A stretch of 15,953 bases of DNA from Nitrospirota bacterium (GCA_029858565.1 JAOUEV010000069.1:1-15953), one strand, 5' to 3'. Counted from the stretch's first letter, positions 129-12,349 are shown. Translations and numbers: made by a program. Notes: generated by a model from the letters alone, not told the origin.

Positions 129-161
129 AAAAAAAGCCGCGCACCTTTTCAGATGCGCGGC
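129..161 (-). terminator. Rho-independent terminator of the 188-697 gene; intron target site
   Basis: Minus strand GCCGCGCATC-TGAAAA-GGTGCGCGGC-TTTTTTT: a 10-bp stem with one G-U pair, then 7 T, 26 nt after the stop codon. Confidence 0.9.
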
Positions 162-187: not shown

Positions 188-697
188 TCAGTTGTCCTTG
201 CGAGGCCCCGGGCAGTTCCCGCAGCCTTTTCTCCATCCCGCCCAGAGCGGCACCCCGTTCTCATCCCGCAGTTTCAGAACATCATCGCCCCGCTTGATCT
301 CGCCGGCAATGAACACGTCCTGTCCCCAGCGCTGGGTTTTCACGCCCTTGATCTCCAGCGTGTCACCGGCAGCGATCTTCACCTCTCCCTGCTGCTCGAT
401 GTACCACTTCGGACCGAGATGTACCGAAAGCGTCCCGCTGTCGGTCTTGAGCTTGAGCCCGATGCCCTGTCCCATTCTCCCCTTGCCCGAGATCTGCTCC
501 ACAGCCTCTACCTGCCCCTTCACGGTCTCTGCCTTGGCAGGATCGTACATTCCGCCCGGACCGCCTGCTCCGGGGCCGCTGCCGTCCTCTTTGCACCAGC
601 CGCCGCAGTTCTTCCATCCCTGCCAGGGCTGTGCAAATGCCGCTGTGGCGATCACTAATCCCAGCACGACAATTCCGACTCCCAAAATCCTCTTCAT
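188..697 (-). CDS. Exported protein with an OB-fold-like beta domain (resembles the MamS/MamX C-terminal-type domain), 169 aa
   Basis: AAGGAGG lies 8 nt before ATG 697, so this start is preferred over the track start at 724. The protein has a signal peptide (MKRILGVGIVVLGLVIATAAFA), a Gly-rich linker and the motifs YDP..ETVKG, VHLGPKWY and LRDENGVPLW. The family assignment is from recall. Confidence 0.75.
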   Translation of the reverse strand: MKRILGVGIVVLGLVIATAAFAQPWQGWKNCGGWCKEDGSGPGAGGPGGMYDPAKAETVKGQVEAVEQISGKGRMGQGIGLKLKTDSGTLSVHLGPKWYIEQQGEVKIAAGDTLEIKGVKTQRWGQDVFIAGEIKRGDDVLKLRDENGVPLWAGWRKGCGNCPGPRKDN

Positions 698-818
698 TGA
701 CACATCCTCCTTGACCCTCCGCATGGGTATCCCCTCCCCTGGAGCATGCGGGGTTATTCTGTAATTGTCTATCTGACCCGGGATACAGGGAAAGGTTGCA
801 TGAGAAGGAAACTATTTC

Positions 819-1027
819 AGGATCTGAGGATTAGAGATGAAGAAGGATTACAGGATTACCAAACAAAAGGATTAACAAAAAAAGGATCAAAGGATGCGGT
901 GCCCCCTGATCCTTTAATCCTCATAATCCCGTTTCTCTATAATCCTGTTATTCCTAATCCTGCTTCTCCTAATCCTGCTTCTCCTTATCCTGCTTCTCCT
1001 AATCCTGCTTCTCCTTATCCTGCTTCA
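819..1027. repeat. Inverted array of short repeats: (AGGAT[T/C]A)n arm, spacer, (TAATCCT)n arm
   Basis: AGGAT units at 819, 827, 844, 852, 868, 883 and 891. ATCC(T) units at about 909, 917, 926 and 942, continuing through the 15-bp tandem. Inner perfect pair: AAAGGATCA (881-889) with TGATCCTTT (907-915). Confidence 0.85.
953..1027 (+). repeat. 15-bp tandem repeat CCTWATCCTGCTTCT x5
   Basis: Units start at 953, 968, 983, 998 and 1013, with W = A,A,T,A,T. The last unit ends in TCA, which is the TGA stop of the LysR gene. Confidence 0.95.
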
Positions 1028-1915
1028 TTTTTCTTTCAGCATGAAGTCGAGAAAAGCCTTGCACAAAGGAGATCGGCTTCTCGCTTTCAGGAGAACGACC
1101 GAGAATTGCCGCTCCATCCTGACGCCTTTGAGCCTGACCGTTGCGAGCCTGCCTGCCCGAACATCATCATCAAGCGGGCGGCTGGACAGGATCGATATGC
1201 CAAGGCCGGCCTTGACCGCCTGGCGCACCGCGTCGCTGCTCCCGACAACAGCAACAACATTCAATTCATCGATGGACAGGCCCGCGGCACCAAGGTGCTG
1301 CGCCATGATCCGGAGCGTGCCCGAGCCCTGCTCCCGCAGGATAAAGGGCTCTGCCTTCAGCGCTTCGACCTCAACGGTCCTCTTGTTGGCCCAGGCATGG
1401 CCGGCAGGGACTGCGATCACCAGTTCGTCGTGCAAAAAAGCGTGCGTCGCCAGATAGGGATCGCTGACACGGGCGCCCACAACGCCTATGCAAAGCTCGC
1501 CGTTCATGACCGCCTCGGTGATCTTCGCGGTGTCATCGATGCTCAGGCGGATGGATATTTCGGGATAGAGTTTTTTGAACCTGCCGATCAAGCGGGGAAG
1601 GATATAGGCGCCGGGAATCGTGCTGCCGCCTATGGCCAGCAGGCCGCTCACCTTTCCCGAGAGACCTTCGATCTCCTGACGCGCCCGGTCGCGCTCCTCC
1701 AGCAGTCTTACACCGTGCCGGTACAGCACCTCGCCCGCATCGGTCGGGACGATCCGCCTGCCGAGCCGGTCCAGCAGACGAACGCCCAGCTCCTGCTCCA
1801 GTTGTTTGATATGGCCGCTGACCGTGGGCTGGGAAAGGCGCAGCTGCTCCGCTGTACGCGAAAAGCTTCGCAGCCGGACAAGGGTGCAGAATATCTCTAT
1901 CTTGTGAAGATCCAT
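1025..1915 (-). CDS. LysR-family transcriptional regulator (CysL-like / selenium-metabolism-associated type), 296 aa
   Basis: N-terminal HTH SFSRTAEQLRLSQPTVSGHIKQLEQELGVRLLDR. The substrate domain has GGSTIPGAYILP and REQGSGT, typical of the CysL-like subfamily. Confidence 0.93.
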   Translation of the reverse strand: MDLHKIEIFCTLVRLRSFSRTAEQLRLSQPTVSGHIKQLEQELGVRLLDRLGRRIVPTDAGEVLYRHGVRLLEERDRARQEIEGLSGKVSGLLAIGGSTIPGAYILPRLIGRFKKLYPEISIRLSIDDTAKITEAVMNGELCIGVVGARVSDPYLATHAFLHDELVIAVPAGHAWANKRTVEVEALKAEPFILREQGSGTLRIMAQHLGAAGLSIDELNVVAVVGSSDAVRQAVKAGLGISILSSRPLDDDVRAGRLATVRLKGVRMERQFSVVLLKARSRSPLCKAFLDFMLKEK

Positions 1916-1945
1916 AGGGATAGTGATCGAAGTACAATCTAAACA

Positions 1946-2008
1946 AGGGCTATAGTTGTAAGTAAACTCTTTACTGCTTAGGGCTCTTACTTCTAGCCCT
2001 CTACCCCT
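1946..2008. repeat. Degenerate inverted short-repeat element between pepA and the LysR gene
   Basis: AGGGCTA (1946-1952) pairs with TAGCCCT (1994-2000), with GTAAG/CTTAC and AGTAAA/TTTACT inside. 1970-1980 TTTACTGCTTA is the exact reverse complement of 6684-6694. Confidence 0.55.
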
Positions 2009-3514
2009 TTAGCCCTTTTTTGTCTTCTCCGCCTGTTCCCTCAGGAACTGCGTCAGCAGCCGGGCGCCGATGCCCGTGGCGCCTTTCGGGGTGTAGGGCC
2101 GTTCCCTGTCGGTCCATGCTGTTGCCGCGATGTCCAGGTGGGCCCAGGGATGCTTTTCCACGAATTTCGACAGCAGGCAGGCCGCGGTGATCACGCCGCC
2201 GTCCCTGCCGCCGGCGTTCTTCATGTCCGCGATGTCGCTCTTGATCAGGTCGCAATACCCCTCCCAGAGGGGCAGCTCCCAGACCCGCTCCCCGGTCTTC
2301 TCGCCCGCGTCGCGCAATGCCTGCTTCAGCCCTTCGTCAGTGCCGATCATGCCGCTGGCCTCGGTGCCCAGGGCTATCCTGCACGCTCCGGTCAGCGTGG
2401 CGATGTCCACGATCAGGGAAGGCTTGTACCTGCATGCGTACGCCAGGGCATCGGCCAGGATCAGCCGCCCCTCGGCGTCGGTGTTGATGATCTCGATGGT
2501 CTTGCCGGACATCGTGGTAAGCACATCGCCGGGCTTCAGCGCGCTGCCGCTCGGCATGTTCTCGGTCGCGGGCAGCAGCGCCACGATGTTCAGCGGGAGC
2601 TTCAGGGCCGCGGCGCTCCTGATCGCGCCGAGCACCGCTGCGCCGCCTCCCATGTCATCCTTCATCTTATCCATGTTCTCCGACGGCTTGATCGAGATGC
2701 CGCCGGAATCAAAGGTGATCGTTTTGCCCACCAGCGCGATCCAGGGTTTCCTGCCTCCTCCCCGGTACTCGACGATGATGAACTTGGGCTGCTGGACGCT
2801 GCCCGCCGCCACTCCCAGAAGCGCGCCCATGCCGAGCCTGCGCATCTGGGGACGGTCGAGGACCTTCACGCGCAGACGGAACTTCCTCCCCAGGCCGCGG
2901 GCAATGCCGGCGATCGTCGTGGGCGTCATGTCCGCCGAAGGCGAGCTCACCATGTCACGGGCCATGATCGCCGATGCCGCGATGATCTCGCCTGCTGACA
3001 GGCCTTTTGAGAGCGCTTTCACCTGCGTCGAACGTTCTGTCAGCACCGTGAGCCGTTCAAGCTCCTTCGCGCCGTTGTTCTCCCTGGTCGTCTTGTATCT
3101 CAGGAACCGGTACAGGCCGAGCAGCGCGCCCTCCGCAAGGGCCTCGCCGGCTTCCTCTCCGGTCAGTGCCGTACTGTCCATGGCGATCACGAGGTCCTTT
3201 GCCCCGGCCCCTCGTGCCGCGGACGCAGCCTTTGCGCAGGCCAGGCGCAGCTTGTCCGCGGAAAAATCCGCTGCCGCGCCCAGGCCGACCAGGAGCAGAC
3301 GATCTGCCGCGAGATCGCCCTCGGGGTAGAGCACGGTCACGTTCCCGGCCTTGGGCGTGAAATCCCCGCGGCTCACAAGCTTCTCGATCATGCCGCCCAG
3401 CGCCCGGTCCGCCCGCGACGCAAAGGTCCCGAACTTGCCCTTTTCGAACAGCAGGACCGCAAGTGCGCCTGTTCTTACTTTTTCTATTGTTCCTGTGTTA
3501 ACGGTGATCTTCAT
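2009..3514 (-). CDS. pepA: Cytosol leucyl aminopeptidase (M17), 501 aa
   Basis: Motifs VGKTITFDSGGISIK, MKDDMGG, NTDAEGRLILAD and ATLTGA. Start moved to ATG 3514 (AAGGAAG upstream) because the track start at 3589 runs through a terminator. Confidence 0.96.
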   Translation of the reverse strand: MKITVNTGTIEKVRTGALAVLLFEKGKFGTFASRADRALGGMIEKLVSRGDFTPKAGNVTVLYPEGDLAADRLLLVGLGAAADFSADKLRLACAKAASAARGAGAKDLVIAMDSTALTGEEAGEALAEGALLGLYRFLRYKTTRENNGAKELERLTVLTERSTQVKALSKGLSAGEIIAASAIMARDMVSSPSADMTPTTIAGIARGLGRKFRLRVKVLDRPQMRRLGMGALLGVAAGSVQQPKFIIVEYRGGGRKPWIALVGKTITFDSGGISIKPSENMDKMKDDMGGGAAVLGAIRSAAALKLPLNIVALLPATENMPSGSALKPGDVLTTMSGKTIEIINTDAEGRLILADALAYACRYKPSLIVDIATLTGACRIALGTEASGMIGTDEGLKQALRDAGEKTGERVWELPLWEGYCDLIKSDIADMKNAGGRDGGVITAACLLSKFVEKHPWAHLDIAATAWTDRERPYTPKGATGIGARLLTQFLREQAEKTKKG

Positions 3515-3531
3515 GATTGTCTTCCTTAATG

Positions 3532-3560
3532 AAAAAAGCCAGGCCTCGGCCTGACTTTTC
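3532..3560 (-). terminator. Intrinsic terminator after rlpA (possibly bidirectional)
   Basis: Minus strand GAAAAGTCAGGC-CGAG-GCCTGGCTTTTTT, with A/T runs on both sides. Confidence 0.75.
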
Positions 3561-3585
3561 CTGTGCTGCATTATGGTGGCCGTGC

Positions 3586-4275
3586 TCAATCCTTGCGCAG
3601 GACCAGCGGTTCCAGCCCTTCCAGGATCAATTTCCCGGCGATCCGCTCAGCCTTCTCCTCTGATGCGTAGGACCCGACCCGCACCCGATAGAACCGGCCG
3701 ATGTTCGATTCAAAGGGTATGATAGCGACCGTCTCGAACCGCCTGTTCAGGCGCTCCTTCAGCAAACGGGCGTTCTCCTCTTCAGCAAAGGCGGCGGCAT
3801 GGACCGTAAAGAAAGCGCCCTCCGCAAGGGGATCCACGCTCTCGATCCGCACGGTTGCCGATCCCTGGGCAGCGAAACCGAGTTCCTTCGCAGCTCCATA
3901 GGACAGTTCCATGACGCGGCTCCGCACAAAGGGTCCCCGGTCGTTCACCTTGACATTGACGCTCTTGAAATTCTCGAGGTTCGTGACGCGAACGACCGTC
4001 CCCAGCGGGATCGTGCGATGGGCCGCCGTGAGCCCGTTCATGTCGAAACGCTCGCCGCTCGCCGTCGGTTTCCCCTGCATTTCCCGTCCATACCACGAAG
4101 CCGTGCCGGTCTCCCGGTACAGCTGTGCGCCGGGAACAGTGCCCGAAGCTGCTGTTTGCAGCGACGGCCGGTCATCGGCAAGGAGCGTCTCGCGCAGCAC
4201 CGGCGCCTTTTCAGCACAGGCGGTTATCGCCGCCGCTGCAGCCGCTGCCAGGTACAATGCCGCTCGCCCTTTCAT
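3586..4275 (-). CDS. rlpA: Septal ring lytic transglycosylase RlpA lipoprotein with C-terminal SPOR domain
   Basis: Lipobox-like ITAC. DPBB motifs GTASWYG, TASGERFDMNGLTAAHRTIP and VNDRGPF. SPOR-like C-terminus with YRVRVGSY. Confidence 0.94.
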   Translation of the reverse strand: MKGRAALYLAAAAAAAITACAEKAPVLRETLLADDRPSLQTAASGTVPGAQLYRETGTASWYGREMQGKPTASGERFDMNGLTAAHRTIPLGTVVRVTNLENFKSVNVKVNDRGPFVRSRVMELSYGAAKELGFAAQGSATVRIESVDPLAEGAFFTVHAAAFAEEENARLLKERLNRRFETVAIIPFESNIGRFYRVRVGSYASEEKAERIAGKLILEGLEPLVLRKD

Positions 4276-4301
4276 GGACCTTCGGGGACCTCCTCTGCCT
4301 G

Positions 4302-4511
4302 CTATGCTGATGCTGTTTCGGTCTTCTTCTTGCCGCTGGTCTTATAGGCCTTTGCGGCACGGAGCTTCCGCTGAGCGCGCTTTACGTCCTTCTTTGCCTT
4401 GCGTACAGCAGGATCGGACTTCTTGCCGCCCGCTTTTTCCGAAACGGTCTTCGCCTTCTCTTTCAATTTTCCGATCTTGCCCGCGAGCTCTTCCTGGTTC
4501 ACTTTTACCAC
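4302..4511 (-). CDS. Small Lys-rich basic hypothetical protein, 69 aa
   Basis: Strong SD GAGGAGG before GTG 4511 (MVKVNQEELAGKIGKLKEK...). It has its own sigma70-like promoter and lies 26 nt upstream of rlpA. Confidence 0.75.
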   Translation of the reverse strand: MVKVNQEELAGKIGKLKEKAKTVSEKAGGKKSDPAVRKAKKDVKRAQRKLRAAKAYKTSGKKKTETASA

Positions 4512-4578
4512 GTTCTGCTCCTCCTCATAAGGTTTACCACGTCCGTTGTCTGGCCGGAGACACACCCCGGGCCGCAGA

Positions 4579-4617
4579 ATAATAAAACTTACCCTGCGAT
4601 AAATCAAGGGATTTATC
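4579..4617 (-). promoter_or_regulatory. Sigma70-like promoter with an overlapping palindromic operator
   Basis: Minus strand TTGATT (4607-4602), 17 nt, TATTAT (4584-4579). The perfect inverted repeat GATAAATC-N4-GATTTATC (4598-4617) covers the -35. Confidence 0.6.
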
Positions 4618-4665
4618 CTGTCATATGCTGGATTCCGGCCGGGGACGACCGCCTCGCGCCGCCGG

Positions 4666-5433
4666 TCATGACCGGGGAACTTCGGTCACAATGCCGCTGG
4701 TCACCTGATCATGGATATACTGCTTGATCGCGTCGCGGTCTTCGGCCATGATCCTGATGAATTTGACCGCCATGCCCGGCTCGGAGAAGGCGCGGGAGTC
4801 CTGCCGGCGCGTATAGATGACCGTCGCGTCGGCGTTGATGGTCCGGGCACCGATGACGATCTGCAGGGCCAGTTTCTCGTTCGGAGCGTGGTACTTGAAC
4901 GTTCGGATGTACATGCCCTGGGAGGAAAGATGGGTGGCGCATTCACCCCGGGCGCTGTCAAGCGGGGTTTTATTGATCGTCACCGGCAGCGACGTCTTTA
5001 TGCGCAGGTTCGAACGCGGCGTGGTTTCCATGACCGACTGGACCGCCCGAAAGAGATCTTCGACCGTGACCGGTCTCCGCAGGCAGAGATGACTGCCGAT
5101 CTCGAAATCCTCGTCCTCGCAGGTCTCATCGTCTTTCGGCAGCAGCAGAATGACCGGGATGGAATAGGTATGGGAGTTCCTGCCGAGCACCCGGAGGAAC
5201 TCCAGCCCGGTCATGCCGGGAAGCGCGAGATCGGTCACCACGAGCGCCGGCATGGCCACGGAGATCATATCGAGCGCCTGACGGGCGTTCCGGGCGGTGC
5301 AGACAGGATAGGAGAAGCGATGAAGCAGCATGGCCGTGGTGAAGAGCTCCTGGATATTGCTTTCAATGACCAGGATGTACCGGCTTTTCCGGGAGAAAGG
5401 ACGGGGCGTTTCAACATCATTGAGCACTGACAT
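4666..5433 (-). CDS. Atypical response-regulator receiver domain plus PilZ domain protein, 255 aa
   Basis: REC pattern ILVIE...VVTDLALPGMTGLEFL...IPVILL...RPV. C-terminal PilZ-like RSNLR...HLSSQGMYI...PGMAVKF. SD AAGGAAG upstream. Confidence 0.88.
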   Translation of the reverse strand: MSVLNDVETPRPFSRKSRYILVIESNIQELFTTAMLLHRFSYPVCTARNARQALDMISVAMPALVVTDLALPGMTGLEFLRVLGRNSHTYSIPVILLLPKDDETCEDEDFEIGSHLCLRRPVTVEDLFRAVQSVMETTPRSNLRIKTSLPVTINKTPLDSARGECATHLSSQGMYIRTFKYHAPNEKLALQIVIGARTINADATVIYTRRQDSRAFSEPGMAVKFIRIMAEDRDAIKQYIHDQVTSGIVTEVPRS

Positions 5434-5542
5434 TTCGCTGTCTTCCTTTCGCCGTCAGGCGATTCGTTGTTCCCTGCGCCAAGATAGTACCTTTCCCTGC
5501 CAGAGCATGCCGCCGGGGACCATGCGATTCTGACCGGAAATG

Positions 5543-6139
5543 CTAGGGGCAGCCGCCCTGCTTCTTCATCTCGGCCACATACTCCTCATAGTTGGAAAGC
5601 TCCTCAGCGCGGAACTCCCGCGCCTCAGGATTCCCCTTCTTGAAGGCATTGTAGCTCTTCATTCCTTCGTCAAAGGCATCGCACGCCGCCTGCTGCCGGT
5701 TCAGCATCACATAGGTCTTGGCCAGGCTCAGATAGACGTTCGAAAGCGCTTCATGCTGGTTGTTCTCCGTGAAAATATCCTTTGCCTTGTTGAAATATTC
5801 CGCTGCCTTGGCATACCTGCCCGCGAAGCTCGCGGTACGGTCCAGAAAACCTTCCTTGGTATAATACGTTTCGAACTTTGTCACCGCGTTGGACCGGAAA
5901 AAGAGGCCATATTCACGATAGGCCGCGGCCATGCCCGGGCGGTTGTTGGTCTTCTGGGAGAGCGCAAGGGCGTCACGGATCAGCTTCTCCGCCTGCACCG
6001 GTTCGTCCCTGCTGGCGTAGTGCTCCGATGCCCACTTCAATTTCAGCGCAGGATCGTCCGTGGACCGTCCAAAGAGGGCAGCGCACCCTGCCAGGAGCGA
6101 ACAACAGCAAACCAACAGGATAATTCTGGTCAAGTTCAC
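5543..6139 (-). CDS. Lipoprotein with TPR-like helical repeats, about 198 aa
   Basis: AAGGAGG precedes GTG 6139 (TTG 6133 is an alternative start). Lipobox LLAGC. TPR-like segments AEKLIRDALAL, AAEYFNKAKDIF and VYLSLAKTY. The track start at 6316 is over-extended. Confidence 0.8.
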   Translation of the reverse strand: MNLTRIILLVCCCSLLAGCAALFGRSTDDPALKLKWASEHYASRDEPVQAEKLIRDALALSQKTNNRPGMAAAYREYGLFFRSNAVTKFETYYTKEGFLDRTASFAGRYAKAAEYFNKAKDIFTENNQHEALSNVYLSLAKTYVMLNRQQAACDAFDEGMKSYNAFKKGNPEAREFRAEELSNYEEYVAEMKKQGGCP

Positions 6140-6249
6140 ATGGCCTCCTTGAGCTTGTTTGCATGCAACAGGATCTGAGCGCAAGAACAACCGATGCGCA
6201 GGTTCCGATGGACTGCTGCTGCACAGCCTGGGCACTGTTAATTTAAAAA

Positions 6250-6278
6250 AATCTACTACAACCGGAACGATAAGGCAA
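6250..6278 (-). promoter_or_regulatory. Putative sigma70 promoter of the lipoprotein gene
   Basis: Minus strand TTGCCT, 17 nt, TAGATT, followed by AT-rich sequence. Confidence 0.5.
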
Positions 6279-6324
6279 GGGAATTTCGGGCGAATGCCCG
6301 GAACAGGACAAGGCACAAGTATAA

Positions 6325-6374
6325 GCGGCAGGGGCGTCGCGAACCAAAAGAGCGCGGTCGCGGGCCCCTACCGC
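6325..6374. repeat. GC-rich imperfect hairpin, REP-like (GTAGGGGC...GCCCCTGC)
   Basis: GCGGCAGGGGC (6325-6335) pairs with GCCCCTACCGC (6364-6374), with an inner CGCGA(A)CC/GGTCGCG stem. It lies 11 nt after the stop of the 8-Cys gene. Confidence 0.5.
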
Positions 6375-6385
6375 AGGAAGGAGCG

Positions 6386-6634
6386 TTACTTCTTCTGGGC
6401 TTTCATGAGCCGCTCGAATTTCTCGGCGCCCACGCAGTCCTTGGCATAGGCGCACCATTCGATGCACGACGATCCGAGCGGACGGGCGTTCACCTGGCCG
6501 CAGTTCTTGCAGACAGAATCAGGCTCATCGGTCCAGATCTCCATCTTTTCGCCGCACTTCTGACACCGGATATCCTCCGGCCTGGGCGACCGTATCTCCG
6601 CGCTGCCGGGGCAGCCTTCCTTGAACATGCTCAT
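6386..6634 (-). CDS. Small Cys-rich putative metal-binding protein (8 Cys), 82 aa
   Basis: Pattern CPG...CQKCG...EIWTDE...CKNCG...SCIEWC.YAKDCVG. TATAAT lies 6 nt before the ATG and there is no SD. Confidence 0.85.
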   Translation of the reverse strand: MSMFKEGCPGSAEIRSPRPEDIRCQKCGEKMEIWTDEPDSVCKNCGQVNARPLGSSCIEWCAYAKDCVGAEKFERLMKAQKK

Positions 6635-6683
6635 GGTTTAATTATACCGCGCCTGCGGAAAAGGGGTATGATGCAGGTCATAA

Positions 6684-6760
6684 TAAGCAGTAAAGCGATA
6701 AGCTCTAGAGCGGGCATGTCCTTTTCCGCTTAATGCTTATCACTTATAACTTACTGCTTT
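6684..6760. repeat. Inverted array of 7-nt repeats (TAAGY / RCTTA)
   Basis: Right arm GCTTAAT GCTTATC ACTTATA ACTTACT GCTT (6728-6759), period 7. Left arm AAGCAGTAA AGCGATAAGC...AGCGG pairs with it. It directly abuts the TAG stop at 6761-6763. Confidence 0.8.
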
Positions 6761-9760
6761 CTACAGCTTCACTTCCACGGTCATGACCTTCTCGCCCAGC
6801 AGGAAGCGCTGCCGCTCCACCGTCACCAGCATCACGTCGCCCTTCTTCTTGTAGAACAGCGCCAGTTTGAGGCCCTGCAGATCAGCCACAGGAACCCCGT
6901 CCACAGCGATCAGCGCGTCGCCCGAACGAAGGCCGGCATTCTGCGCAGGACCGTCCTTGGAAAATCCGCTGAATATGAGCCGTTTCTTTTCCTCTTTGAA
7001 CGAGGCCATGAGCTTGGGCGCGGTCAGACCATCGAGCGACTGGGGGAATATCAGGAAATCCGCGATACCCGGACCGAGTTCGCCGTCATTCATGACGATC
7101 GAATAGGGAGCGCCGTTCCTCCGGTGAACCCGCTTGGGGATGCCGGAGCCATGGGCAATATGCCCGCCGCCTGCGATCACCACCATCCGCTTTCCGGGAT
7201 TCTTCCGCAGATAGTTGTCCACTGACTCGGCCATGGTCTCGTCCCACAGCACCTGGGACTGGACAAAGAAATCGAAGTTCTTCTCTTCCCCTCCGGGCAT
7301 GCGGTGCTGGGAGAACACCTCTCGCAGCCGGTCGCGGTACTCCTGGTCGGAAAAATCGGTTTCCCGGGGAAGTTCCTTGCGTTCTTCCTCGGTCAGCGAA
7401 TCCATCCCGCCCTTGGAGACCTTCTCGGTGATCTCGCGCCTGAGGTTCAGGGCAACCAGCGGGATGCGGTTGGACCGGCAGAAGTCCAGGATGGGCTTAT
7501 ACAGGTTATAATCGAATCCCCAGCGTTTGAAATACTCGGACCGGGAGAGGAACTCCTTCTCGTCGATGGACCCGTTGATATAATCGTCCAGCGCGGGCTG
7601 GAACGGCCGCTGGAACATTTCCATGCCCACGGCGATCGTGCGGTCCCTGCTGAAGAGCGCCTGGATAAGATCGACCTGGACAGCATGGTGGCTGAACTGG
7701 TCGTGGTACTCTCCCACATAGACGATACGCTTGTCCGCCACGCCCTCGACAATACTGGAAAAGGTCTTGAGCGCCCGCACATCAAGGACCAGGGGCTCCT
7801 CGCGAACCGTCAGGATGATGCCGCGGTCGGCTGTTGCCGTGCTTTTGGCCCTGTTCCGACCGTTCTCAAAGGAAAGGCTTGAATATTTGCCGTAGTGATA
7901 GATCTTTCCAAAGGCCGCTGCGGTCTCGCTTGCTGACGGGGAGTTCACGACCGCCACAGGCATCCGGAGATCCCAGGGGTTCTTCCTGACCTCGATGCTG
8001 AATCCCGCTGCCGGCAGGTCCAGGGACCCGAAGAGGCGCTCCGCAACAGGATTGTCGCGTCCCAGAATGACCACAGCGCTTTTCCGCAGGTCGCTGTCCT
8101 TGACCGCCCCGGCCTCACGCACCTCGCCGCCTTTTTCAGTTAAGCCCTTGATCGCGGCCTCGTACCTGCTCCGCTCGGAGAGCGGCAGCACCACGAGCGG
8201 ATCCGTTGCTCCCGTGATCGCCGCTATGAGCGGCGGCGTCTCGTCAGGGGTAAGTATCCGGACCAGGTCATAATCCCGGTCAATGACCGCGGTCGAGGGC
8301 TCCTTGTCCAGGGTGAAGGAGATATGCTTTCGGTCGCTGTCAATGACGATCCGCTCCTCTTTGGACCCTCCCCGCAGAAACGCTATCTCCACAGCAAGCT
8401 CCGCAGGAAGCGCGCTGTTCTTTCTCTTCACATCAAAGGCGAGCTCATAAGAGCTTCCGTTCCGCTTCATCGACGGATTCTCCACGCGGATATCGGGAAG
8501 TCCCCTGCCAGCAAGCATCTGGACAAAGAACGGTTTCAGGTCCATTCCTGTCTCCCGCTCGAATGCAGCGCGGATATCGCTCCACGATCCTTCCTGGAAC
8601 TGGCGGTCCCTGATGAAGGCGCGCAGAGCAGCGAAGAATTTTTCGTCGCCTGCCTGCTTCCTGAGCTGGTGGAAGACCAGCGCCGCCTTTCCATAGCCCA
8701 CGGACCGGGACGCAAGGTCCATCCTGCTTTGAAAATCCTTGAGCGGAAAATCATCCGTTTCCCTCACATAGGCCCCGTAGTTCAGGAGCAGCTGCTTCCG
8801 GTGCTCCCACCCCTTTCCTTTCAGCTCATCATACCAGTGGTCCGCGAGGTACGCGGTCAGCCCTTCAGCCCAGTTGCCCTGGCTGCCGTCAACGTATACC
8901 GAGTTCCCGAACCACTGATGAAGGATCTCATGGCCCAGCGAGGTCTCGATGATGAAGGGAAGCCGCACAACATCCTGGCCGAGGAGCGTGAACGTCGGCA
9001 GGGAATAACCCGTGGGCAGAACGTTCTCGACCACCGAGAACCGCTTGAAGGGATAGGGCGTGAGCATCTTCTCGTACAGCGCCAGGTAGTTCTTCGCCTG
9101 TTCCAGATAGGACGCGGCAAGGGCCCGGTCCTCCTTCAGGAAGTAGGTGAACACTTCGATGTTCCCCTGCCGTTCCTTCAGCACCTCGAAACGGTCCGAT
9201 GCGACAAGGGAAAGCGAATCCAGGGGATGGGGAAAATCAAAGGCAAAGACCACCGAACCGCCGGACTGCGTCCGGGACATTGATTCCGACTCGGATACCG
9301 CCTCATACCCGGCAGGCAGGACCGCGGTCAGTTTCCAGAGACCCAACCCCTGGGGACGGGGATGCCACATGCCGGTAAGCGAGACCCCGCGCGCGTTGAT
9401 GATGCTGGACACCACACCGTAGTTCCGGTCGCCGATCGGCCCGCTTTCCGCGAATACGCCCTCATAGGTGATCACCGCGGATCCGTCAGCCGCGGGTGTA
9501 AAGGAGACCGCACCGTCCTCTGTTGCGAGGACCTGGGCGGCATTGTTCACGGTGACGCCTTTGATGACCAGACCGCCGGCCTGGAAAATCTCCCGCACCC
9601 CGGCCCGAACATCGAACCGGACGGTTCCACTGACCAAGGAACGCTCGATCTGCACCGCAACGTCCAGATGGTATTCGCGCCAGGGGGGCCGCCGGCCATC
9701 GTCAGCCTTCACCGCGACCGGAAGCAGTATGAGGAACAGCAGGAACGCCAGTGATTTCAC
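6761..9760 (-). CDS. Exported M1-family metallo-aminopeptidase fused to a ChaN (heme-uptake-like) domain and a C-terminal PDZ domain, 999 aa
   Basis: GTG start with SD AAAGGAG, then a signal peptide. Zinc motif HEILH-x18-E (HEILHQWFGNSVYVDGSQGNWAEGL). ChaN-type IVYVGEYHD...MEMFQ...WDETMA...AGGGH. PDZ-type PAQNAGLRSGDALIAVDG. Confidence 0.9.
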   Translation of the reverse strand: MKSLAFLLFLILLPVAVKADDGRRPPWREYHLDVAVQIERSLVSGTVRFDVRAGVREIFQAGGLVIKGVTVNNAAQVLATEDGAVSFTPAADGSAVITYEGVFAESGPIGDRNYGVVSSIINARGVSLTGMWHPRPQGLGLWKLTAVLPAGYEAVSESESMSRTQSGGSVVFAFDFPHPLDSLSLVASDRFEVLKERQGNIEVFTYFLKEDRALAASYLEQAKNYLALYEKMLTPYPFKRFSVVENVLPTGYSLPTFTLLGQDVVRLPFIIETSLGHEILHQWFGNSVYVDGSQGNWAEGLTAYLADHWYDELKGKGWEHRKQLLLNYGAYVRETDDFPLKDFQSRMDLASRSVGYGKAALVFHQLRKQAGDEKFFAALRAFIRDRQFQEGSWSDIRAAFERETGMDLKPFFVQMLAGRGLPDIRVENPSMKRNGSSYELAFDVKRKNSALPAELAVEIAFLRGGSKEERIVIDSDRKHISFTLDKEPSTAVIDRDYDLVRILTPDETPPLIAAITGATDPLVVLPLSERSRYEAAIKGLTEKGGEVREAGAVKDSDLRKSAVVILGRDNPVAERLFGSLDLPAAGFSIEVRKNPWDLRMPVAVVNSPSASETAAAFGKIYHYGKYSSLSFENGRNRAKSTATADRGIILTVREEPLVLDVRALKTFSSIVEGVADKRIVYVGEYHDQFSHHAVQVDLIQALFSRDRTIAVGMEMFQRPFQPALDDYINGSIDEKEFLSRSEYFKRWGFDYNLYKPILDFCRSNRIPLVALNLRREITEKVSKGGMDSLTEEERKELPRETDFSDQEYRDRLREVFSQHRMPGGEEKNFDFFVQSQVLWDETMAESVDNYLRKNPGKRMVVIAGGGHIAHGSGIPKRVHRRNGAPYSIVMNDGELGPGIADFLIFPQSLDGLTAPKLMASFKEEKKRLIFSGFSKDGPAQNAGLRSGDALIAVDGVPVADLQGLKLALFYKKKGDVMLVTVERQRFLLGEKVMTVEVKL

Positions 9761-9792
9761 GGAGGTCTCCTTTCGAACAACACGCTCCTACG

Positions 9793-9801
9793 ATAGTACC
9801 A
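9793..9801 (-). promoter_or_regulatory. Putative extended -10 promoter (TGgTACTAT) of the M1-ChaN-PDZ gene
   Basis: Minus strand TGGTACTAT about 32 nt upstream of the GTG. The same GGTACTATC 9-mer occurs upstream of the REC-PilZ gene (5483-5491). Confidence 0.4.
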
Positions 9802-9897
9802 GAATTTCACATCCTTAGCCATTGGTTCCCTTTTACGGTCCCTCCCCGGCTATCCGGGAGATCTTGGACTGTTTCTTCAGGGAACAGACAAATTGTC

Positions 9898-9926
9898 TTG
9901 AAATTGGTCGCCAAGGACACTATAAT
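9898..9926 (+). promoter_or_regulatory. Near-consensus sigma70 promoter of the dksA-like gene
   Basis: TTGAAA (9898-9903), 17 nt, TATAAT (9921-9926). Confidence 0.75.
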
Positions 9927-9991
9927 ATGCGGCATTCTGTGGGTAGGTCGGATTCGAGCCGATTGCCCCGCGCCGGGAGGTATCTCAGAAC

Positions 9992-10609
9992 ATGGCGGTT
10001 AAAAAGAAGGCCAAGAAAAAGGCTGCGCCGAAAAGATCGGCAGGCAAGAAGGCAGTGAAGAAAGCAGCAAAGAAGAAGGCCGCTAAGAAGACGGCGACCC
10101 GGACCGTGAAAAAGGCGGTAAAGAAGAAGACCGCGAAAAAAGCAGCGAAGAAAACAGCAAAGAAGACCGCACCCCGCAAATCCTCTGCCGCCGCGGCTCC
10201 CCGTATGTCCGCTGAACTGATGAAGCGGAAGGAGCAGCTCAAGAAGATCCTCCTGAAGAAGCGCGCCGAGGTCGTGGAGCGGCTCGAGGCCCGCATGGGA
10301 CAGAAGCTCGTCCGCGAGACGGGCCAGAAGATCGACTCGGCCATGGACAGCGCCGACCAGTCGGCCCAGGACGTTGACCAGGGCATCGATTACTCCATCA
10401 TCGAGATGAAGTACGAGCAGTACAAGGACATCGCAGATGCGTTCCGGAAGCTGCAGAGCAACGCCTACGGCCTCTGCGAGGAATGCGGCAACGATATCAG
10501 CCTCAAGCGGCTGGAAGTGAACCCCCTGGCGCGGTACTGCATCGAATGCAAGACCCGCAAGGAGGAGCTTGAGAAGATCCAGCGCGAGGAAACGCGATTC
10601 AAGGAATAG
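9992..10609 (+). CDS. dksA: DksA/TraR C4 zinc-finger protein with a Lys/Ala-rich histone-H1-like N-terminal extension, 205 aa
   Basis: SD GGAGG. Coiled-coil tip DSADQS. Zinc finger YGLCEECG...RLEVNPLARYCIECK. The first ~65 residues are KKAAKK-type repeats. The symbol is family-level only. Confidence 0.88.
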   Translation: MAVKKKAKKKAAPKRSAGKKAVKKAAKKKAAKKTATRTVKKAVKKKTAKKAAKKTAKKTAPRKSSAAAAPRMSAELMKRKEQLKKILLKKRAEVVERLEARMGQKLVRETGQKIDSAMDSADQSAQDVDQGIDYSIIEMKYEQYKDIADAFRKLQSNAYGLCEECGNDISLKRLEVNPLARYCIECKTRKEELEKIQREETRFKE

Positions 10610-10615
10610 TTTTTC

Positions 10616-10644
10616 TTGACAACCGGAGAGGCATCCAGTAATTT
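10616..10644 (+). promoter_or_regulatory. Sigma70 promoter of the tRNA gene
   Basis: TTGACA (10616-10621), 17 nt, TAATTT (10639-10644), 25 nt before the tRNA. Confidence 0.65.
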
Positions 10645-10669
10645 ATCCTCCGTCCGATCACCCTACCGT

Positions 10670-10744
10670 GGCGGTGTAGCTCAGCGGTAGAGCAGGGGAA
10701 TCATAATCCCTGTGTCCGGGGTTCAAATCCCTGCACCGCCACCA
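10670..10744 (+). tRNA. tRNA with CAT anticodon, most likely elongator tRNA-Met
   Basis: GGCGGTG-TA-GCTC-AGCGGTA-GAGC-A-GGGGA-ATCATAA-TCCCT-GTGTC-CGGGG-TTCAAAT-CCCTG-CACCGCC-A-CCA. G1-C72 is paired, so it is not an initiator tRNA. CCA is encoded. Confidence 0.95.
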
Positions 10745-10877
10745 TTTTTCCTCTCTTTCACCGTTCCCCTGATCCGAATTCTTCGGTATAATGAACTACC
10801 CGAGACAAGCGACGGGCTGTCATGCCGCGGTCTTTTCCGGCCTCGTCACTGTTCTCCTGTCCTGCTTCATTTTTCTT

Positions 10878-12254
10878 ATGCTGATTGACGCCGTCCGCGA
10901 AACGATCAAGAAGCACTCACTCCTCTCCCCCGGCGACCGCGTGGTCGTGGCGGTATCGGGCGGACCGGACTCGGTTTGTCTGCTGAGCGTTCTCCGGGAG
11001 CTGTCCCGGGAACTGGACCTGACGCTGCAGGTGGCCCATGTGGACCATATGTTCCGGGGCAAGGAGTCCGCGGACGACGCGCGCTTTGTCGCGGACCTGG
11101 CGAATAAGCTCGGCCTTCCCTCGTCCATCGGGCAGTTCGATGTGCCCCGGTACTGCAGGGAACGCGGCTGTTCGTCCCAGGAAGGCGCCCGGAAAGTGCG
11201 CTACGGCTTCCTGCAGCAGGTGGCGCATGATACCGGCGCGTCCCGCATCGCCACGGGACACACGGCAGATGATCAGGCCGAGACCCTGCTGATGCGGCTC
11301 ATCCGCGGCGCCGGCGTCGCCGGGCTGTCGGGCATCCCGCCGGTCCGGGACAACGTGGTACGTCCCCTGATCGAGATCACGCGCACGCAGGTGCTGGATT
11401 ATCTCCGCCAGCAGGACCTCGCCTACCGCGTTGATCCCTCGAACGATCAACCGGTCTATACGCGGAACCGGATCCGCCTGGAGGTGCTGCCGGTCCTTAA
11501 GCGGCTCAATCCGCGGATCGTGGAGACCCTCGCGCTGGAAGCCGCCCTGCTCCGGGACGAGGATGAGGCAGTTGAGGAGCATCTGCGTGCGATCGCCGAG
11601 CACGCCGTGGCCAGGAACGATGATGTCCTCGCCCTCAAGCGCGAGGCCTTCGAATCCCTCCCCGCTGCCTTCCGACGCCGGCTGTTCAGGATCGTCGTGA
11701 ACATGACCGAAGCCGACGCTTCGTCGCTCTCGCTCGGCCAGGTCGACGACGCGCTCGCATTCCTGATGACGGCCCGCACCGGCAGGTCGCTGCACCTGCC
11801 CCGGGGCCTTACGGTCACCCGCGAATATGACCGCTTCGTGTTCAGCACTCACCAGGACCCCGCGGCGTTCGCCCATGACCTCCCGGTCCCCGGCACCCTG
11901 AGGGCACCGGAAATCGGGCGGGAGATAAGCACCGAGGTCGTGCTCCCCGGAGACCCGGGACCGGAACGGTCAAATTATCGGTGGCAGGCCAGTTTCGATT
12001 ATGATAAGATACGTCCGTTTCTGACCATCCGGAGCCGGCGTCCCGGCGACTGGTTCCGTCCGGCGGGCATGGCGGGCAAAAGCAAAAAGCTCCAGGATTT
12101 CTTTGTTGACGAGAAGGTTCCGCTCAGGAAGCGCGGATCCATACCTCTCCTCTGCTCAGGAGAGGACATCCTGTGGGTCGTTGGCCTCCGGACCGATGAA
12201 CGGTTCCTGCCGGGGCCGGAGACGAAGAAGATAGTAATCGTAACAGTACGATAA
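10878..12254 (+). CDS. tilS: tRNA(Ile)-lysidine synthetase, about 458 aa
   Basis: Motifs VAVSGGPDSVCLL, HVDHMFRG, IATGHTADDQAETLLMRLIRG, RPL and YTRNRIR, plus C-terminal KKLQDFFVDEKVP. Start placed at ATG 10878 (MLIDAVRETI) from typical N-terminal length. ATG 10791 overlaps a TATAAT box. Confidence 0.95.
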   Translation: MLIDAVRETIKKHSLLSPGDRVVVAVSGGPDSVCLLSVLRELSRELDLTLQVAHVDHMFRGKESADDARFVADLANKLGLPSSIGQFDVPRYCRERGCSSQEGARKVRYGFLQQVAHDTGASRIATGHTADDQAETLLMRLIRGAGVAGLSGIPPVRDNVVRPLIEITRTQVLDYLRQQDLAYRVDPSNDQPVYTRNRIRLEVLPVLKRLNPRIVETLALEAALLRDEDEAVEEHLRAIAEHAVARNDDVLALKREAFESLPAAFRRRLFRIVVNMTEADASSLSLGQVDDALAFLMTARTGRSLHLPRGLTVTREYDRFVFSTHQDPAAFAHDLPVPGTLRAPEIGREISTEVVLPGDPGPERSNYRWQASFDYDKIRPFLTIRSRRPGDWFRPAGMAGKSKKLQDFFVDEKVPLRKRGSIPLLCSGEDILWVVGLRTDERFLPGPETKKIVIVTVR

Positions 12255-12260
12255 ATTCCG

Positions 12261-12328
12261 TCAGGGGTGAGGGGTCAGGAGTAAGGGGAAACCGCCCTGT
12301 TCATTATCCCCTTACCCTTTACCCCTTA
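12261..12328. repeat. Inverted array of 7-nt repeats (TNAGGGG x4 / CCCCTTA x3)
   Basis: TCAGGGG TGAGGGG TCAGGAG TAAGGGG (12261-12288), a 19-nt spacer, then CCCCTTA CCCTTTA CCCCTTA (12308-12328). It starts 6 nt after the tilS stop and ends 9 nt before the hpt SD. Confidence 0.88.
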
Positions 12329-12349
12329 CGATTCATTGGAGGTTATTAC

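What the first reader, a model, noticed from the sequence alone, without database searches (positions are those of the whole stretch)
819..12328. Recurrent architecture: four post-stop-codon inverted arrays of short tandem repeats
Seen: four intergenic elements (819-1027, 1946-2008, 6684-6760, 12261-12328). Each has a purine-rich arm of degenerate ~7-8-nt units, a short spacer and a reverse-complement pyrimidine-rich arm. Each begins within 0-6 nt of a stop codon (LysR, pepA, M1 fusion, tilS). The units differ (AGGATTA, TAAGYNN, TNAGGGG) and arm copy numbers are unequal, so the architecture is shared more than the sequence. None has a clean terminator U-tail. Established: these resemble cyanobacterial STRR heptamer repeats. 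Inference: a genome-wide class of slippable 3'-UTR hairpins (mRNA stabilisers, RNase or protein-binding sites), or footprints or landing sites of an unrecognised small mobile system. This is the best candidate for an undescribed system in the window.
Basis: partly seen in the sequence, partly recalled or inferred. Interest (0 to 1): 0.75.

Follow-up and report, generated by a model that had tools for sequence, protein, structure and literature searches.

The report
Post-stop heptamer-repeat hairpins in Nitrospirota
Four gene junctions in this uncultured Nitrospirota contig carry long hairpins built from a purine-rich array of 7-8-base repeats and its complementary array, a fast-evolving structure that relatives share at the same junctions and that resembles repeats already described in Xanthomonas, cyanobacteria and Geobacter, with a function still unproven.

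Summary
All four elements are real. Each lies in an A+T-richer gap directly after a stop codon and folds into a long imperfect hairpin (RNAfold z -4.7, -2.1, -4.0, -2.9). Arm complementarity exceeds what arm composition gives.

The window is from an uncultured Nitrospirota bacterium. In 53 related loci the same architecture recurs, including at the orthologous tilS-hpt junction, but with different repeat units.

Across 402 intergenic regions:
- strong hairpins are enriched (50/402 vs 17/804 shuffled);
- they are purine-first 26:1;
- the commonest arm period is 7, then 8;
- they start a median of 2 nt after the stop but end 31.5 nt before the next start.

I found no dispersed copies, no Rfam match and no cargo, so a mobile system is not supported.

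Best reading: slippage-built inverted repeat arrays that act as 3'-end or intercistronic RNA stem-loops. That function is inferred. G.U versus A.C counts and sense versus antisense stability show no RNA-strand signal.

The kind is already described (Xanthomonas GGGAATC inverted pairs, cyanobacterial STRR, Geobacter heptanucleotide sites). This is a new variant of it. The window's own genome could not be scanned.

The parts
819..1027 (-). E1, whole element: inverted arrays around a terminator-like tip, directly after the lysR stop codon (1025-1027)
   Evidence: RNA fold of 810-1035(-): -72.8 kcal/mol, z -4.74. Hairpin score 50 against an arm-shuffled mean of 28.5.
920..1026 (-). E1 5' (sense) purine-rich array: 15-nt unit, 7.1 copies
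   Evidence: TRF gives period 15 with 87% matches. The tail holds 13 GGA motifs in 109 nt.
874..915 (-). E1 tip: terminator-like hairpin (915..881, 14 pairs) plus a U7 tract (880..874)
   Evidence: Terminator scan. It is the only stable structure if the transcript ends at the U tract.
819..873 (-). E1 3' (sense) pyrimidine-rich arm with spaced TAATCC repeats; it lies beyond the U tract
   Evidence: I2, I24. TRF finds arrays at 844-859 and 852-887.
1941..2021 (-). E2: composite hairpin that overlaps the pepA stop codon (2009-2011) and ends about 25 nt before the lysR start (1915)
   Evidence: Arms 1941-1960 and 2002-2021, 80% complementary. TRF finds period 8 at 1994-2018. Fold z -2.10 with 6/200 shuffles as good. 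This is the weakest of the four.
6682..6757 (-). E3: xxxTAAG-type array, a 12-nt loop and the complementary array, 5 nt or less after the stop codon of the M1-ChaN-PDZ gene (6761-6763)
   Evidence: TRF finds period 15 at 6683-6712. Fold z -3.97 with 0/200 shuffles as good.
12261..12329 (+). E4: TNAGGGG heptamer array, a 17-nt loop and a CCCCTTA-type array, 6 nt after the tilS stop codon (12252-12254) and 20 nt before the hpt start (12350)
   Evidence: I4, 83% complementary. TRF finds period 7 on both arms. Fold z -2.89.
6325..6374 (-). Comparator: a plain G+C-rich hairpin without repeats, 11 nt after the stop codon of the Zn-ribbon gene
   Evidence: Hairpin score 25. Sequence read.
136..161 (-). 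Comparator: a canonical intrinsic terminator (11-pair stem plus T7) after ORF 188..724

Best explanation
What they are: lineage-typical post-stop hairpins made of two inverted arrays of 7-8-nt simple-sequence repeats.

Shown:
- Each has a G/A-rich array, a short loop and a complementary C/T-rich array.
- Each starts within a few nucleotides of a stop codon.
- The same architecture occurs at the same and at other gene junctions across related Nitrospirota, with the repeat unit replaced from lineage to lineage.
- The elements are not copies of one another.

Inferred origin:
- Replication slippage creates and resizes each array in place, so arm copy numbers are unequal. At the two orthologous junctions examined the unit differs between lineages and arm copy number varies, which fits this.

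Inferred action:
- In the transcript, the purine-rich array cannot pair with itself.
- When the pyrimidine-rich array emerges, it zips onto the purine array in any of several registers.
- The result is a long, mismatch-tolerant stem-loop right behind the terminating ribosome.
- This stem-loop defines or protects the 3' end of the upstream cistron. At E1 it extends a true terminator. Elsewhere it would act as a pause or leaky terminator, or as a barrier to 3'-to-5' exonucleases, as REP/BIME hairpins do in enterobacteria (recalled, not from a call here).
For: Hairpins are real:
- Folds give z -2.1 to -4.7.
- 35 of 39 elements beat all 30 within-arm shuffles.

Enrichment (Nitrospirota intergenic regions, hairpin score >=28):
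- 50/402 in intergenic regions, against 17/804 shuffled (p 2e-12) and 18/402 coding.

Link between repeats and hairpins:
- 20/28 purine-first hairpins carry a TRF array of period 6-9 or 14-16.
- Only 11/86 mixed and 0/5 pyrimidine-first hairpins do (p 1e-8).

Period:
- The best arm period is 7 in 39/70 arms and 8 in 19/70, against 4 and 4 in shuffled arms.
- Periods 7 and 8 make up 59/120 non-coding arrays against 35/204 coding arrays.

Position:
- Among 32 elements between co-directional genes, the median distance from the stop is 2 nt and to the next start 31.5 nt.
- 22/32 lie within 12 nt of the stop and 6/32 within 12 nt of the start (p 0.02).
- Divergent gaps hold 2/62 elements and other gaps 37/340 (p 0.06).

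Polarity:
- 26 purine-first against 1 pyrimidine-first (score >=24).
- The 5' arm is G-rich in 32/34 independent sequence clusters.
- TRF-only adjacent array pairs: 13 G-then-C against 2 C-then-G.

Orthologous junctions:
- 17/52 tilS-hpt junctions have a hairpin of score >=22. Fourteen are purine-first and none pyrimidine-first, with unrelated units.
- The pepA-lysR junction of the closest syntenic locus, L019, has a CGTGAGA-type element where the window has GGGCTA-type units.
- At the junction after the M1-ChaN-PDZ gene, relatives show arrays, plain hairpins or nothing.

Other:
- E1 carries a terminator at its tip.
- All four window elements fold better as sense than as antisense RNA.
Against: There is no sign of selection on the sense RNA:
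- G.U-type mismatches number 87 against 84 A.C-type.
- Isolated mismatches within helices number 19 against 18.
- Sense RNA is more stable in 14 elements and less stable in 18.

Other points against:
- Only 8/32 elements have at least 50% T in the 10 nt after the 3' arm, and only E1 of the window's four passes a terminator scan.
- There is no G+C-rich core at the tips in general.
- Two thirds of tilS-hpt junctions (35/52) lack a hairpin of score >=22, so the structure is dispensable at that site.

Limits of the analysis:
- No transcript data exist.
- Counts rest on my own simple gene caller. Its gene map for the window agrees with the Pfam hits, and it was not otherwise validated.
- Only the best hairpin per gap was scored.
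- Gaps shorter than 30 nt were dropped, and 70 + 17 gaps longer than 500 nt were skipped.
- Loci are related, although 39 elements collapse to only 34 sequence clusters.
Confidence: 0.5

Rival explanations
1. Non-adaptive by-product. Heptamer repeats and inverted duplications arise through mutation (slippage, template switching). They persist only where they do no harm, which is just after stop codons and away from promoters and ribosome-binding sites. On this reading the hairpin has no role.
For: - There is no G.U over A.C excess and no sense-strand stability bias.
- Stems are only about 76% Watson-Crick paired (880 of 1159 aligned positions).
- Arms are unequal and units turn over quickly.
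- The element is absent from 35/52 tilS-hpt junctions.
- Heptanucleotide repeats are reported as the commonest long repeats in most bacterial genomes and attributed to polymerase slippage (as cited in PMC4679880 and PMC4692102; passages read).
Against: - Neutral decay does not explain the 26:1 purine-first polarity.
- It does not explain why complementarity is kept while units change at the same junction.
- Similar units recur at independent sites more often than letter-shuffled units do: 37 pairs against 16.5 +/- 3.7, maximum 29 in 200 shuffles.
Confidence: 0.27
2. DNA-level element. The inverted arrays would act as cruciform or G-quadruplex structures, or as binding sites for nucleoid proteins. 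This was proposed for Xanthomonas GGGAATC repeats (G4) and for Geobacter heptanucleotide sites (IHF/HU).
For: - The element reads the same from both strands, and no RNA-strand signal is seen.
- 5' arms are G-rich in 37/39 elements.
- Units of L028 and L009 are of the same GGGGAATC type as in Xanthomonas (PMC4692102).
- Unit families recur across sites.
Against: - By direct reading, E4 and E2 have only three G-runs per arm. An intramolecular G4 needs four (established knowledge).
- E1 and E3 arrays have no G-run of three or more apart from single sites.
- The stop-codon proximity is unexplained by nucleoid binding.
- No binding protein is known.
Confidence: 0.13
3. Arrays for a single-strand RNA-binding protein that reads about 7 nt per monomer or a short motif (a cold-shock-type chaperone, CsrA or Hfq). 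The hairpin would compete with protein binding. E1 in particular would be a 3'-UTR sponge.
For: - The 7-nt period.
- B. subtilis CspB binds one heptamer per monomer (as cited in PMC4679880; passage read).
- The E1 tail between the lysR stop and the U7 tract is unstructured (z -0.8). It holds 13 GGA motifs in 109 nt (shuffle mean 5.8, maximum 12 in 2000), and 23/36 triplets are A-R-N in one frame, followed by a terminator.
- Unit families recur.
Against: - GGA counts are 0, 2 and 3 in E2-E4.
- No trinucleotide typical of Shine-Dalgarno or GGA motifs is enriched in 5' arms.
- Tandem repetition inflates any motif count.
- The presence of CsrA, Hfq or Csp in this genome could not be checked.
Confidence: 0.07
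4. Footprints or landing sites of a small mobile element (MITE- or REP-like).
For: - The elements have inverted symmetry and an intergenic location.
- There is one weak cross-locus similarity at non-orthologous sites: L042 against L003, 69.7% over 122 nt.
Against: - BLAST of E1-E4 against the window plus 80 loci gives only 14-18-nt chance hits (E >= 0.017).
- The four elements share no sequence.
- There are no terminal repeats with target duplications and no cargo.
- Elements are inherited at orthologous junctions.
- No Rfam family matches.
Confidence: 0.03

Closest known systems
Xanthomonas GGGAATC and Nostoc GGGGA(C/T)T heptameric intergenic repeats (PMC4692102; passages and Discussion read)
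   Same: - Tandem heptamers that are mostly intergenic.
- G-rich arrays often occur as 'convergent' inverted pairs able to form stem-loops (70-75 pairs per Xanthomonas genome).
[quoted passage not shown]
- They are rare between divergent genes.
- They occur at the same junction in related species with length and sequence variation.
- Their function is unknown.
- L028 and L009 even use a GGGGAATC-type unit.
   Different: - Here there is no single genome-wide unit. The four window elements use four different units, and relatives use many more.
- Most units cannot form G4.
- The host is an uncultured Nitrospirota lineage.
Cyanobacterial STRR short tandemly repeated heptamers
   Same: Tandem heptanucleotide repeats in non-coding DNA.
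   Different: - STRR are defined by a few fixed consensus heptamers in heterocystous cyanobacteria (recalled).
- The elements here have site-specific units, a paired inverted layout and a different phylum.
Geobacter metallireducens multicopy heptanucleotide elements (PMC2700814; passages read; PDF supplements not seen)
   Same: Four to five tandem heptanucleotide repeats in intergenic regions. One class (consensus MTYCTGA) is drawn as a strand-switching hairpin, and its complement resembles the TCAGGRG units of E4.
   Different: The Geobacter sets are BLAST-matched multicopy families with a shared consensus, interpreted as sites for global regulators. No shared consensus exists here.
REP/BIME extragenic palindromes of enterobacteria (recalled)
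   Same: Imperfect hairpins after stop codons, including inside operons. Their proposed roles as mRNA 3'-end barriers are the model for the function inferred here.
   Different: REPs are conserved palindromes of about 35 nt present in hundreds of copies and linked to RAYT transposases. These elements share no sequence and are built from tandem repeats.
Intrinsic (Rho-independent) terminators
   Same: They sit after the stop codon, form a hairpin, and have an A-rich-then-T-rich polarity. The E1 tip qualifies.
   Different: E2-E4 lack a U tract. Stems are long, A+T-rich, mismatched and repetitive.
TAACTGA direct repeats of Beggiatoaceae, cyanobacteria and Bacteroidetes (PMC4679880; abstract and passages read)
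   Same: Intergenic heptamer arrays for which a post-transcriptional role is suspected.
   Different: Those are direct repeats of one unit lying just upstream of start codons. Only one inverted case was reported.

Membership tests
Intergenic heptameric repeats in inverted pairs (Xanthomonas/Nostoc type, PMC4692102) | Tandem unit of 7 nt | tested here: met
   The best arm period is 7 in 39/70 arms and 8 in 19/70. In the window, TRF gives period 7 for E4, period 8 for E2 and the left arm of E1, and period 15 for the right arm of E1 and for E3.
Intergenic heptameric repeats in inverted pairs (Xanthomonas/Nostoc type, PMC4692102) | Strong bias to non-coding DNA | tested here: met
   0.81 arrays per kb of non-coding DNA against 0.29 per kb of coding DNA. 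Periods 7 and 8 make up 59/120 non-coding arrays against 35/204 coding arrays.
Intergenic heptameric repeats in inverted pairs (Xanthomonas/Nostoc type, PMC4692102) | G-rich arrays paired in convergent (G-first) orientation | tested here: met
   13 G-then-C pairs against 2 C-then-G pairs. The 5' arm is G-rich in 32/34 clusters.
Intergenic heptameric repeats in inverted pairs (Xanthomonas/Nostoc type, PMC4692102) | Lies closer to one neighbouring ORF than to the other (here tested as stop codon of the upstream gene against start codon of the downstream gene) | tested here: met
   Median 2 nt from the stop against 31.5 nt to the next start; 23/32 are closer to the stop.
Intergenic heptameric repeats in inverted pairs (Xanthomonas/Nostoc type, PMC4692102) | Under-represented between divergent genes | tested here: inconclusive
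   2/62 against 37/340, p = 0.06. The result depends on my gene calls.
Intergenic heptameric repeats in inverted pairs (Xanthomonas/Nostoc type, PMC4692102) | One genome-wide G4-capable consensus unit | tested here: not met
   The window's four elements use four unrelated units, and relatives use dozens. E1 and E3 lack G-runs.
Cyanobacterial STRR | Fixed consensus heptamers of heterocystous cyanobacteria (recalled) | tested here: not met
   The host is Nitrospirota and the units are site-specific. The STRR consensus itself was not checked in any call.
REP/BIME/REPIN | A conserved palindrome present in many near-identical copies | tested here: not met
   No copy of E1-E4 occurs elsewhere in the window or in the 80 loci. 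The window's full genome was not available.
REP/BIME/REPIN | Cognate RAYT transposase in the genome | not testable with these tools
   The genome beyond the 16-kb window was not retrievable. The proteins of the loci were not scanned.
Intrinsic terminator | G+C-rich stem, short loop and a U tract directly after the stem | tested here: inconclusive
   E1 meets this (915..881 plus U7). E2-E4 do not. 8/32 elements in relatives have a T-rich tail.
MITE | Terminal inverted repeats, target-site duplication and multiple copies | tested here: not met
   No copies were found. The arms are tandem arrays that run up to the stop codon.
CsrB/RsmZ-type GGA sponge RNA (E1 only) | Many GGA motifs, mostly in hairpin loops, ahead of a terminator | tested here: inconclusive
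   There are 13 GGA motifs in 109 nt ahead of a terminator, but the tail is unstructured so the motifs are not in loops. No Rfam hit. CsrA could not be checked.

The most novel reading that the evidence does not exclude
The 7-nt register is functional rather than merely mutational. On this reading the arrays are cooperative docking sites for a single-strand-binding chaperone, with one monomer per heptamer, as reported for cold-shock proteins. Protein binding would compete with the register-flexible hairpin. Transcript 3'-end formation or downstream translation at dozens of junctions would then be tuned by the level of one protein and retuned over evolutionary time by slippage. The E1 tail, with 13 GGA motifs and A-R-N phasing ahead of a terminator, would be a 3'-UTR-borne sponge of this kind. 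The roughly two-fold excess of similar units at independent sites and the strict purine-first polarity are what keep this reading open.
Probability: 0.1. Interest if true: 0.8.

Novelty: new variant of a known kind. Interest (0 to 1): 0.45.

Why it matters
Heptamer repeats are reported as the commonest long simple repeats in bacteria, yet no function has been established for them in any of the systems described. This Nitrospirota clade offers a clean comparative series. The same gene junction (tilS-hpt) carries the same architecture with many unrelated units, a strict purine-first polarity and tight attachment to the stop codon. That makes two open questions testable:
- whether such hairpins set mRNA 3' ends in lineages where canonical terminators are sparse;
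- why 7 nt, and why purine-first.

For annotation, these elements should be recognised as a repeat class and not mistaken for mobile DNA or small-RNA genes.

Tried and rejected
Hypotheses tested and dropped:
1. Three-frame stop trap (a heptamer carrying a stop triplet closes all frames). Stop triplets in 5' arms match composition: 91 observed against 89.4 in mononucleotide shuffles. Only 5/39 arms close all three frames.
2. Shine-Dalgarno-like or GGA enrichment in purine arms. Neither is among the over-represented trinucleotides.
3. Selection on the sense RNA seen through wobble pairs or stability. No signal.
4. Repeats growing out of a G+C-rich terminator core. The inner 8 pairs are not richer in G+C or better paired than the outer pairs. 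It holds for E1 only.
5. A known RNA family. Rfam at gathering threshold finds only the tRNA. At E <= 1 there is only a chance hit of E4 to a microRNA-precursor hairpin model (23 bits against a cut-off of 64).
6. Dispersed or mobile copies. None found.
7. G-quadruplex as a common principle. By reading the sequence, no arm has four G-runs.

Literature:
- The searches and the look-up found nothing on such elements in Nitrospirota.
- They did not retrieve the REP-translation paper I recalled, so that point is marked as recall.
- 'Not in print for Nitrospirota' therefore rests only.

Technical:
- One search failed on a parameter limit and was rerun.


Full report
**What is in the window.**
- The window is a roughly 60% G+C contig. 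Its TilS protein is most similar (60-72% identity) to proteins from metagenome-assembled Nitrospirota.
- Pfam and a simple codon-usage gene caller give these genes: ORF 188..724(-), LysR 1025..1915(-), PepA 2009..3589(-), an RlpA-like gene, a small ORF, a receiver-PilZ gene, a TPR gene, a Zn-ribbon gene 6386..6634(-), and an M1-ChaN-PDZ fusion 6761..9760(-). On the other strand lie a DksA-like gene, tRNA(CAU), TilS 10791..12254(+), Hpt, FtsH and FolP.
- Each of the four reported elements sits in a dip of G+C content, in a gap between co-directional genes, directly after the upstream stop codon.

**Checking the observation.**
- TRF finds short-period arrays in all four elements. The inverted-repeat search finds the arms.
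- Folded as sense RNA, they give z-scores of -4.74, -2.10, -3.97 and -2.89 against dinucleotide shuffles.
- A stricter control shuffles each arm separately and so keeps the purine/pyrimidine segregation. E1, E3 and E4 still score above all 30 shuffles.
- E2 is the weakest. Its arms (1941-1960 and 2002-2021) run into the last pepA codons.
  - E1 has at its tip a terminator-like hairpin (915..881) followed by U7 on the lysR strand.
  - 'Purine arm first' is not an orientation relative to the gene. An inverted repeat of this type is purine-first when read from either strand.
- The other six gaps of at least 30 nt in the window carry no such arrays. One has a plain G+C-rich post-stop hairpin. A canonical terminator follows ORF 188..724.

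**Relatives.**
- One scan of genome contigs with a TilS alignment returned 80 loci with up to 10 kb on each side. Fifty-four are Nitrospirota records (53 distinct MAGs; L023 and L034 are two contigs of one isolate). Twenty-six are from other phyla and served as an outgroup. The window's own genome was not among them.
- The tilS-to-hpt junction of many Nitrospirota loci shows the same layout with quite different units. Examples are CGGAGAA-type in L002, L009 and L050; CTGAAGG-type in L015, L018, L042 and L044; CGTGAGA/TCACG-type in L041, L043 and L048; and GGGGAATC-type in L028.
- Of 52 such junctions, 17 have a hairpin of score >=22. Fourteen of those are purine-first and none pyrimidine-first. 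Nine junctions are shorter than 60 nt.
- In L019, the closest syntenic locus, the pepA-lysR junction carries a CGTGAGA-type element where the window has GGGCTA-type units. After the M1-ChaN-PDZ gene, relatives show 11-nt-period arrays (L049, L051), plain hairpins (L019, L048) or nothing (L021).
- Close pairs differ mainly by point changes. More distant pairs differ by blocks of units.

**Survey statistics.** I called genes in all loci and scored the best single stem-loop in every gap of 30-500 nt, using a strand-neutral score. The controls were two dinucleotide shuffles and one length-matched coding window per gap.
- Enrichment:
  - In Nitrospirota, scores >=28 occur in 50/402 gaps, 17/804 shuffles and 18/402 coding windows.
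- Polarity:
  - Among hairpins scoring >=24, 26 are purine-first and 1 pyrimidine-first. The outgroup gives 8 and 3.
  - Using TRF alone, adjacent non-coding arrays within 130 nt are G-rich then C-rich in 13 cases, the reverse in 2, and same-sense in 1.
- Repeats in the arms:
  - Purine-first hairpins carry a TRF array of period 6-9 or 14-16 in 20/28 cases, against 11/86 for mixed hairpins.
  - Hairpins with at least one repeat arm occupy 31/402 Nitrospirota gaps and 4/168 outgroup gaps (p 0.013). One Bacillota locus, L061, clearly has them too.
  - Arm periodicity peaks at 7 (39/70 arms) and then 8 (19/70). This set was partly selected with TRF, so the non-circular figure is the 20/28 above.
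- Position and independence:
  - For the 32 elements between co-directional genes, the median distance from the stop is 2 nt and to the next start 31.5 nt.
  - Divergent gaps hold 2/62 elements against 37/340 elsewhere (p 0.06).
  - The 39 elements fall into 34 sequence clusters. Thirty-two have a G-rich 5' arm, so relatedness of the loci does not create the polarity.

**What it is not.**
- E1-E4 have no other copy in the window or in 1.22 Mb of loci. The best cross-locus similarity found between elements at non-orthologous sites is weak. Loops are 9-17 nt.
- No Rfam family matches.
- A mobile element or its footprint is therefore unlikely, although the window's own genome could not be searched.
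- Stop triplets and Shine-Dalgarno-like triplets in the purine arms are at composition level.
- No arm has the four G-runs needed for an intramolecular quadruplex (direct reading).

**How it most likely works.**
- Shown: inverted 7-8-nt arrays, real complementarity, attachment to stop codons, purine-first polarity, persistence at junctions with unit turnover, and no dispersal.
- Inferred origin: slippage builds and resizes each array in place.
- Inferred action, in the transcript:
  - The purine-rich array cannot self-pair.
  - It is captured in any register by the following pyrimidine-rich array.
  - The resulting long stem-loop just behind the stop codon marks or protects the 3' end of the upstream cistron.
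- E1 shows this most plainly, because the arrays flank a canonical terminator. If transcription stops at the U7 tract, the lysR 3' tail is an unstructured purine-rich stretch of 109 nt with 13 GGA motifs.
- Against an RNA-level role:
  - Transition mismatches split evenly between G.U and A.C on the sense strand (87 vs 84; isolated within helices, 19 vs 18).
  - Sense and antisense folds are equally stable across relatives (14 vs 18), although all four window elements favour the sense strand.
  - Only 8/32 elements have a T-rich tail.
- For these reasons I hold the functional part at about one half. The neutral by-product reading stays a serious rival.
- Two observations remain unexplained by either reading: the strict purine-first polarity, and the roughly two-fold excess of similar units at independent sites (37 pairs vs 16.5 +/- 3.7 expected).

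**Comparison with what is known.**
- The closest description is that of GGGAATC heptamers in Xanthomonas and GGGGA(C/T)T in Nostoc. These share the following features (PMC4692102; passages and Discussion read):
  - They are intergenic, and in Xanthomonas there are 70-75 convergent inverted pairs per genome.
  - They lie close to a neighbouring ORF (a mean 28 nt to the next 5' neighbouring ORF against 160 nt to the next downstream ORF).
  - They are rare between divergent genes.
  - They are variable between related species at the same junction.
  - Their function is unresolved.
- Geobacter metallireducens has multicopy heptanucleotide elements, one class drawn as a hairpin (PMC2700814; passages read).
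- TAACTGA direct repeats lie upstream of start codons in Beggiatoaceae (PMC4679880; abstract and passages read).
- The present elements meet the defining layout of the Xanthomonas type but not its single G4-capable unit. They fail the sequence-family criteria of STRR, REP and MITEs.
- My searches found no description of such elements in Nitrospirota.

**Verdict.**
- The mobile-system idea is not supported.
- The architecture is a new variant of a known but functionally unexplained kind. Interest is moderate.

Noticed in passing
window 10670-10744 (+), upstream of tilS at 10791: A tRNA with anticodon CAU lies about 50 nt upstream of tilS, whose enzyme modifies tRNA-Ile2(CAU). In 20 of 24 Nitrospirota loci scanned, a tRNA(CAU) lies within about 350 nt upstream of tilS. 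Two loci have it farther away and two have none. The G1:C72 pair argues against an initiator tRNA. Ile2 versus elongator Met was not tested.
   Followed up: partly
window 6635-6680 (-), upstream of the Zn-ribbon gene 6386..6634: A palindrome of the type TATGAYYTGCATCATA, followed by TATAAT about 7 nt before the ATG, appears in the window and in all seven relatives printed (L048 with one substitution and a degenerate TATAAT). It is a likely promoter or operator giving a near-leaderless mRNA.
   Followed up: no
window 916-1024 (-), the E1 tail: The tail holds 13 GGA motifs in 109 nt (shuffle mean 5.8), and 23/36 triplets are A-R-N in one frame. It is unstructured if the transcript ends at the U7 tract. 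It looks like a CsrA or Hfq sponge but was not tested.
   Followed up: partly
Nitrospirota loci, non-coding period-7 arrays: Similar heptamer units (at most 1 mismatch, any rotation or strand) recur at independent sites about twice as often as letter-shuffled units: 37 pairs of 732, against 16.5 +/- 3.7. Families such as AATTGCA, ATTGCGG, GTTCAGA and CTGAAGG appear in several genomes. This is unexplained.
   Followed up: partly
L061 6110-6139, 9831-9949, 14027-14181: A Bacillota MAG in the outgroup also carries heptamer arrays (AGGAGTT type), and at two of the three sites (9831-9949, 14027-14181) they form inverted pairs; 6110-6139 is a single array. The architecture is therefore not confined to Nitrospirota.
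   Followed up: no
L049 about 300-480 and L051 about 1150-1345 (junction after the M1-ChaN-PDZ gene): At the position orthologous to E3, these loci have arrays with a period of about 11 nt (CAGTC plus 6 nt) and their complement. The period is therefore not always 7-8.
   Followed up: no
window 6761-9760 (-): A 999-residue fusion of a peptidase M1 domain, a ChaN/Tiki haem-binding domain and a C-terminal PDZ domain. Homologues covering more than 60% of it occur in 16 Nitrospirota loci at the same place.
   Followed up: no
window 10046-10166 (+), inside the DksA-like gene 9992..10609: Coding tandem repeats of 12 and 15 nt give a lysine/alanine/glutamate-rich N-terminal region ahead of the DksA/TraR zinc finger.
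   Followed up: no
L042 11840-12020 and L003 7353-7464: A weak similarity (69.7% over 122 nt) links two repeat-bearing hairpins at non-orthologous positions in different genomes. It is the only hint of dispersal seen.
   Followed up: partly
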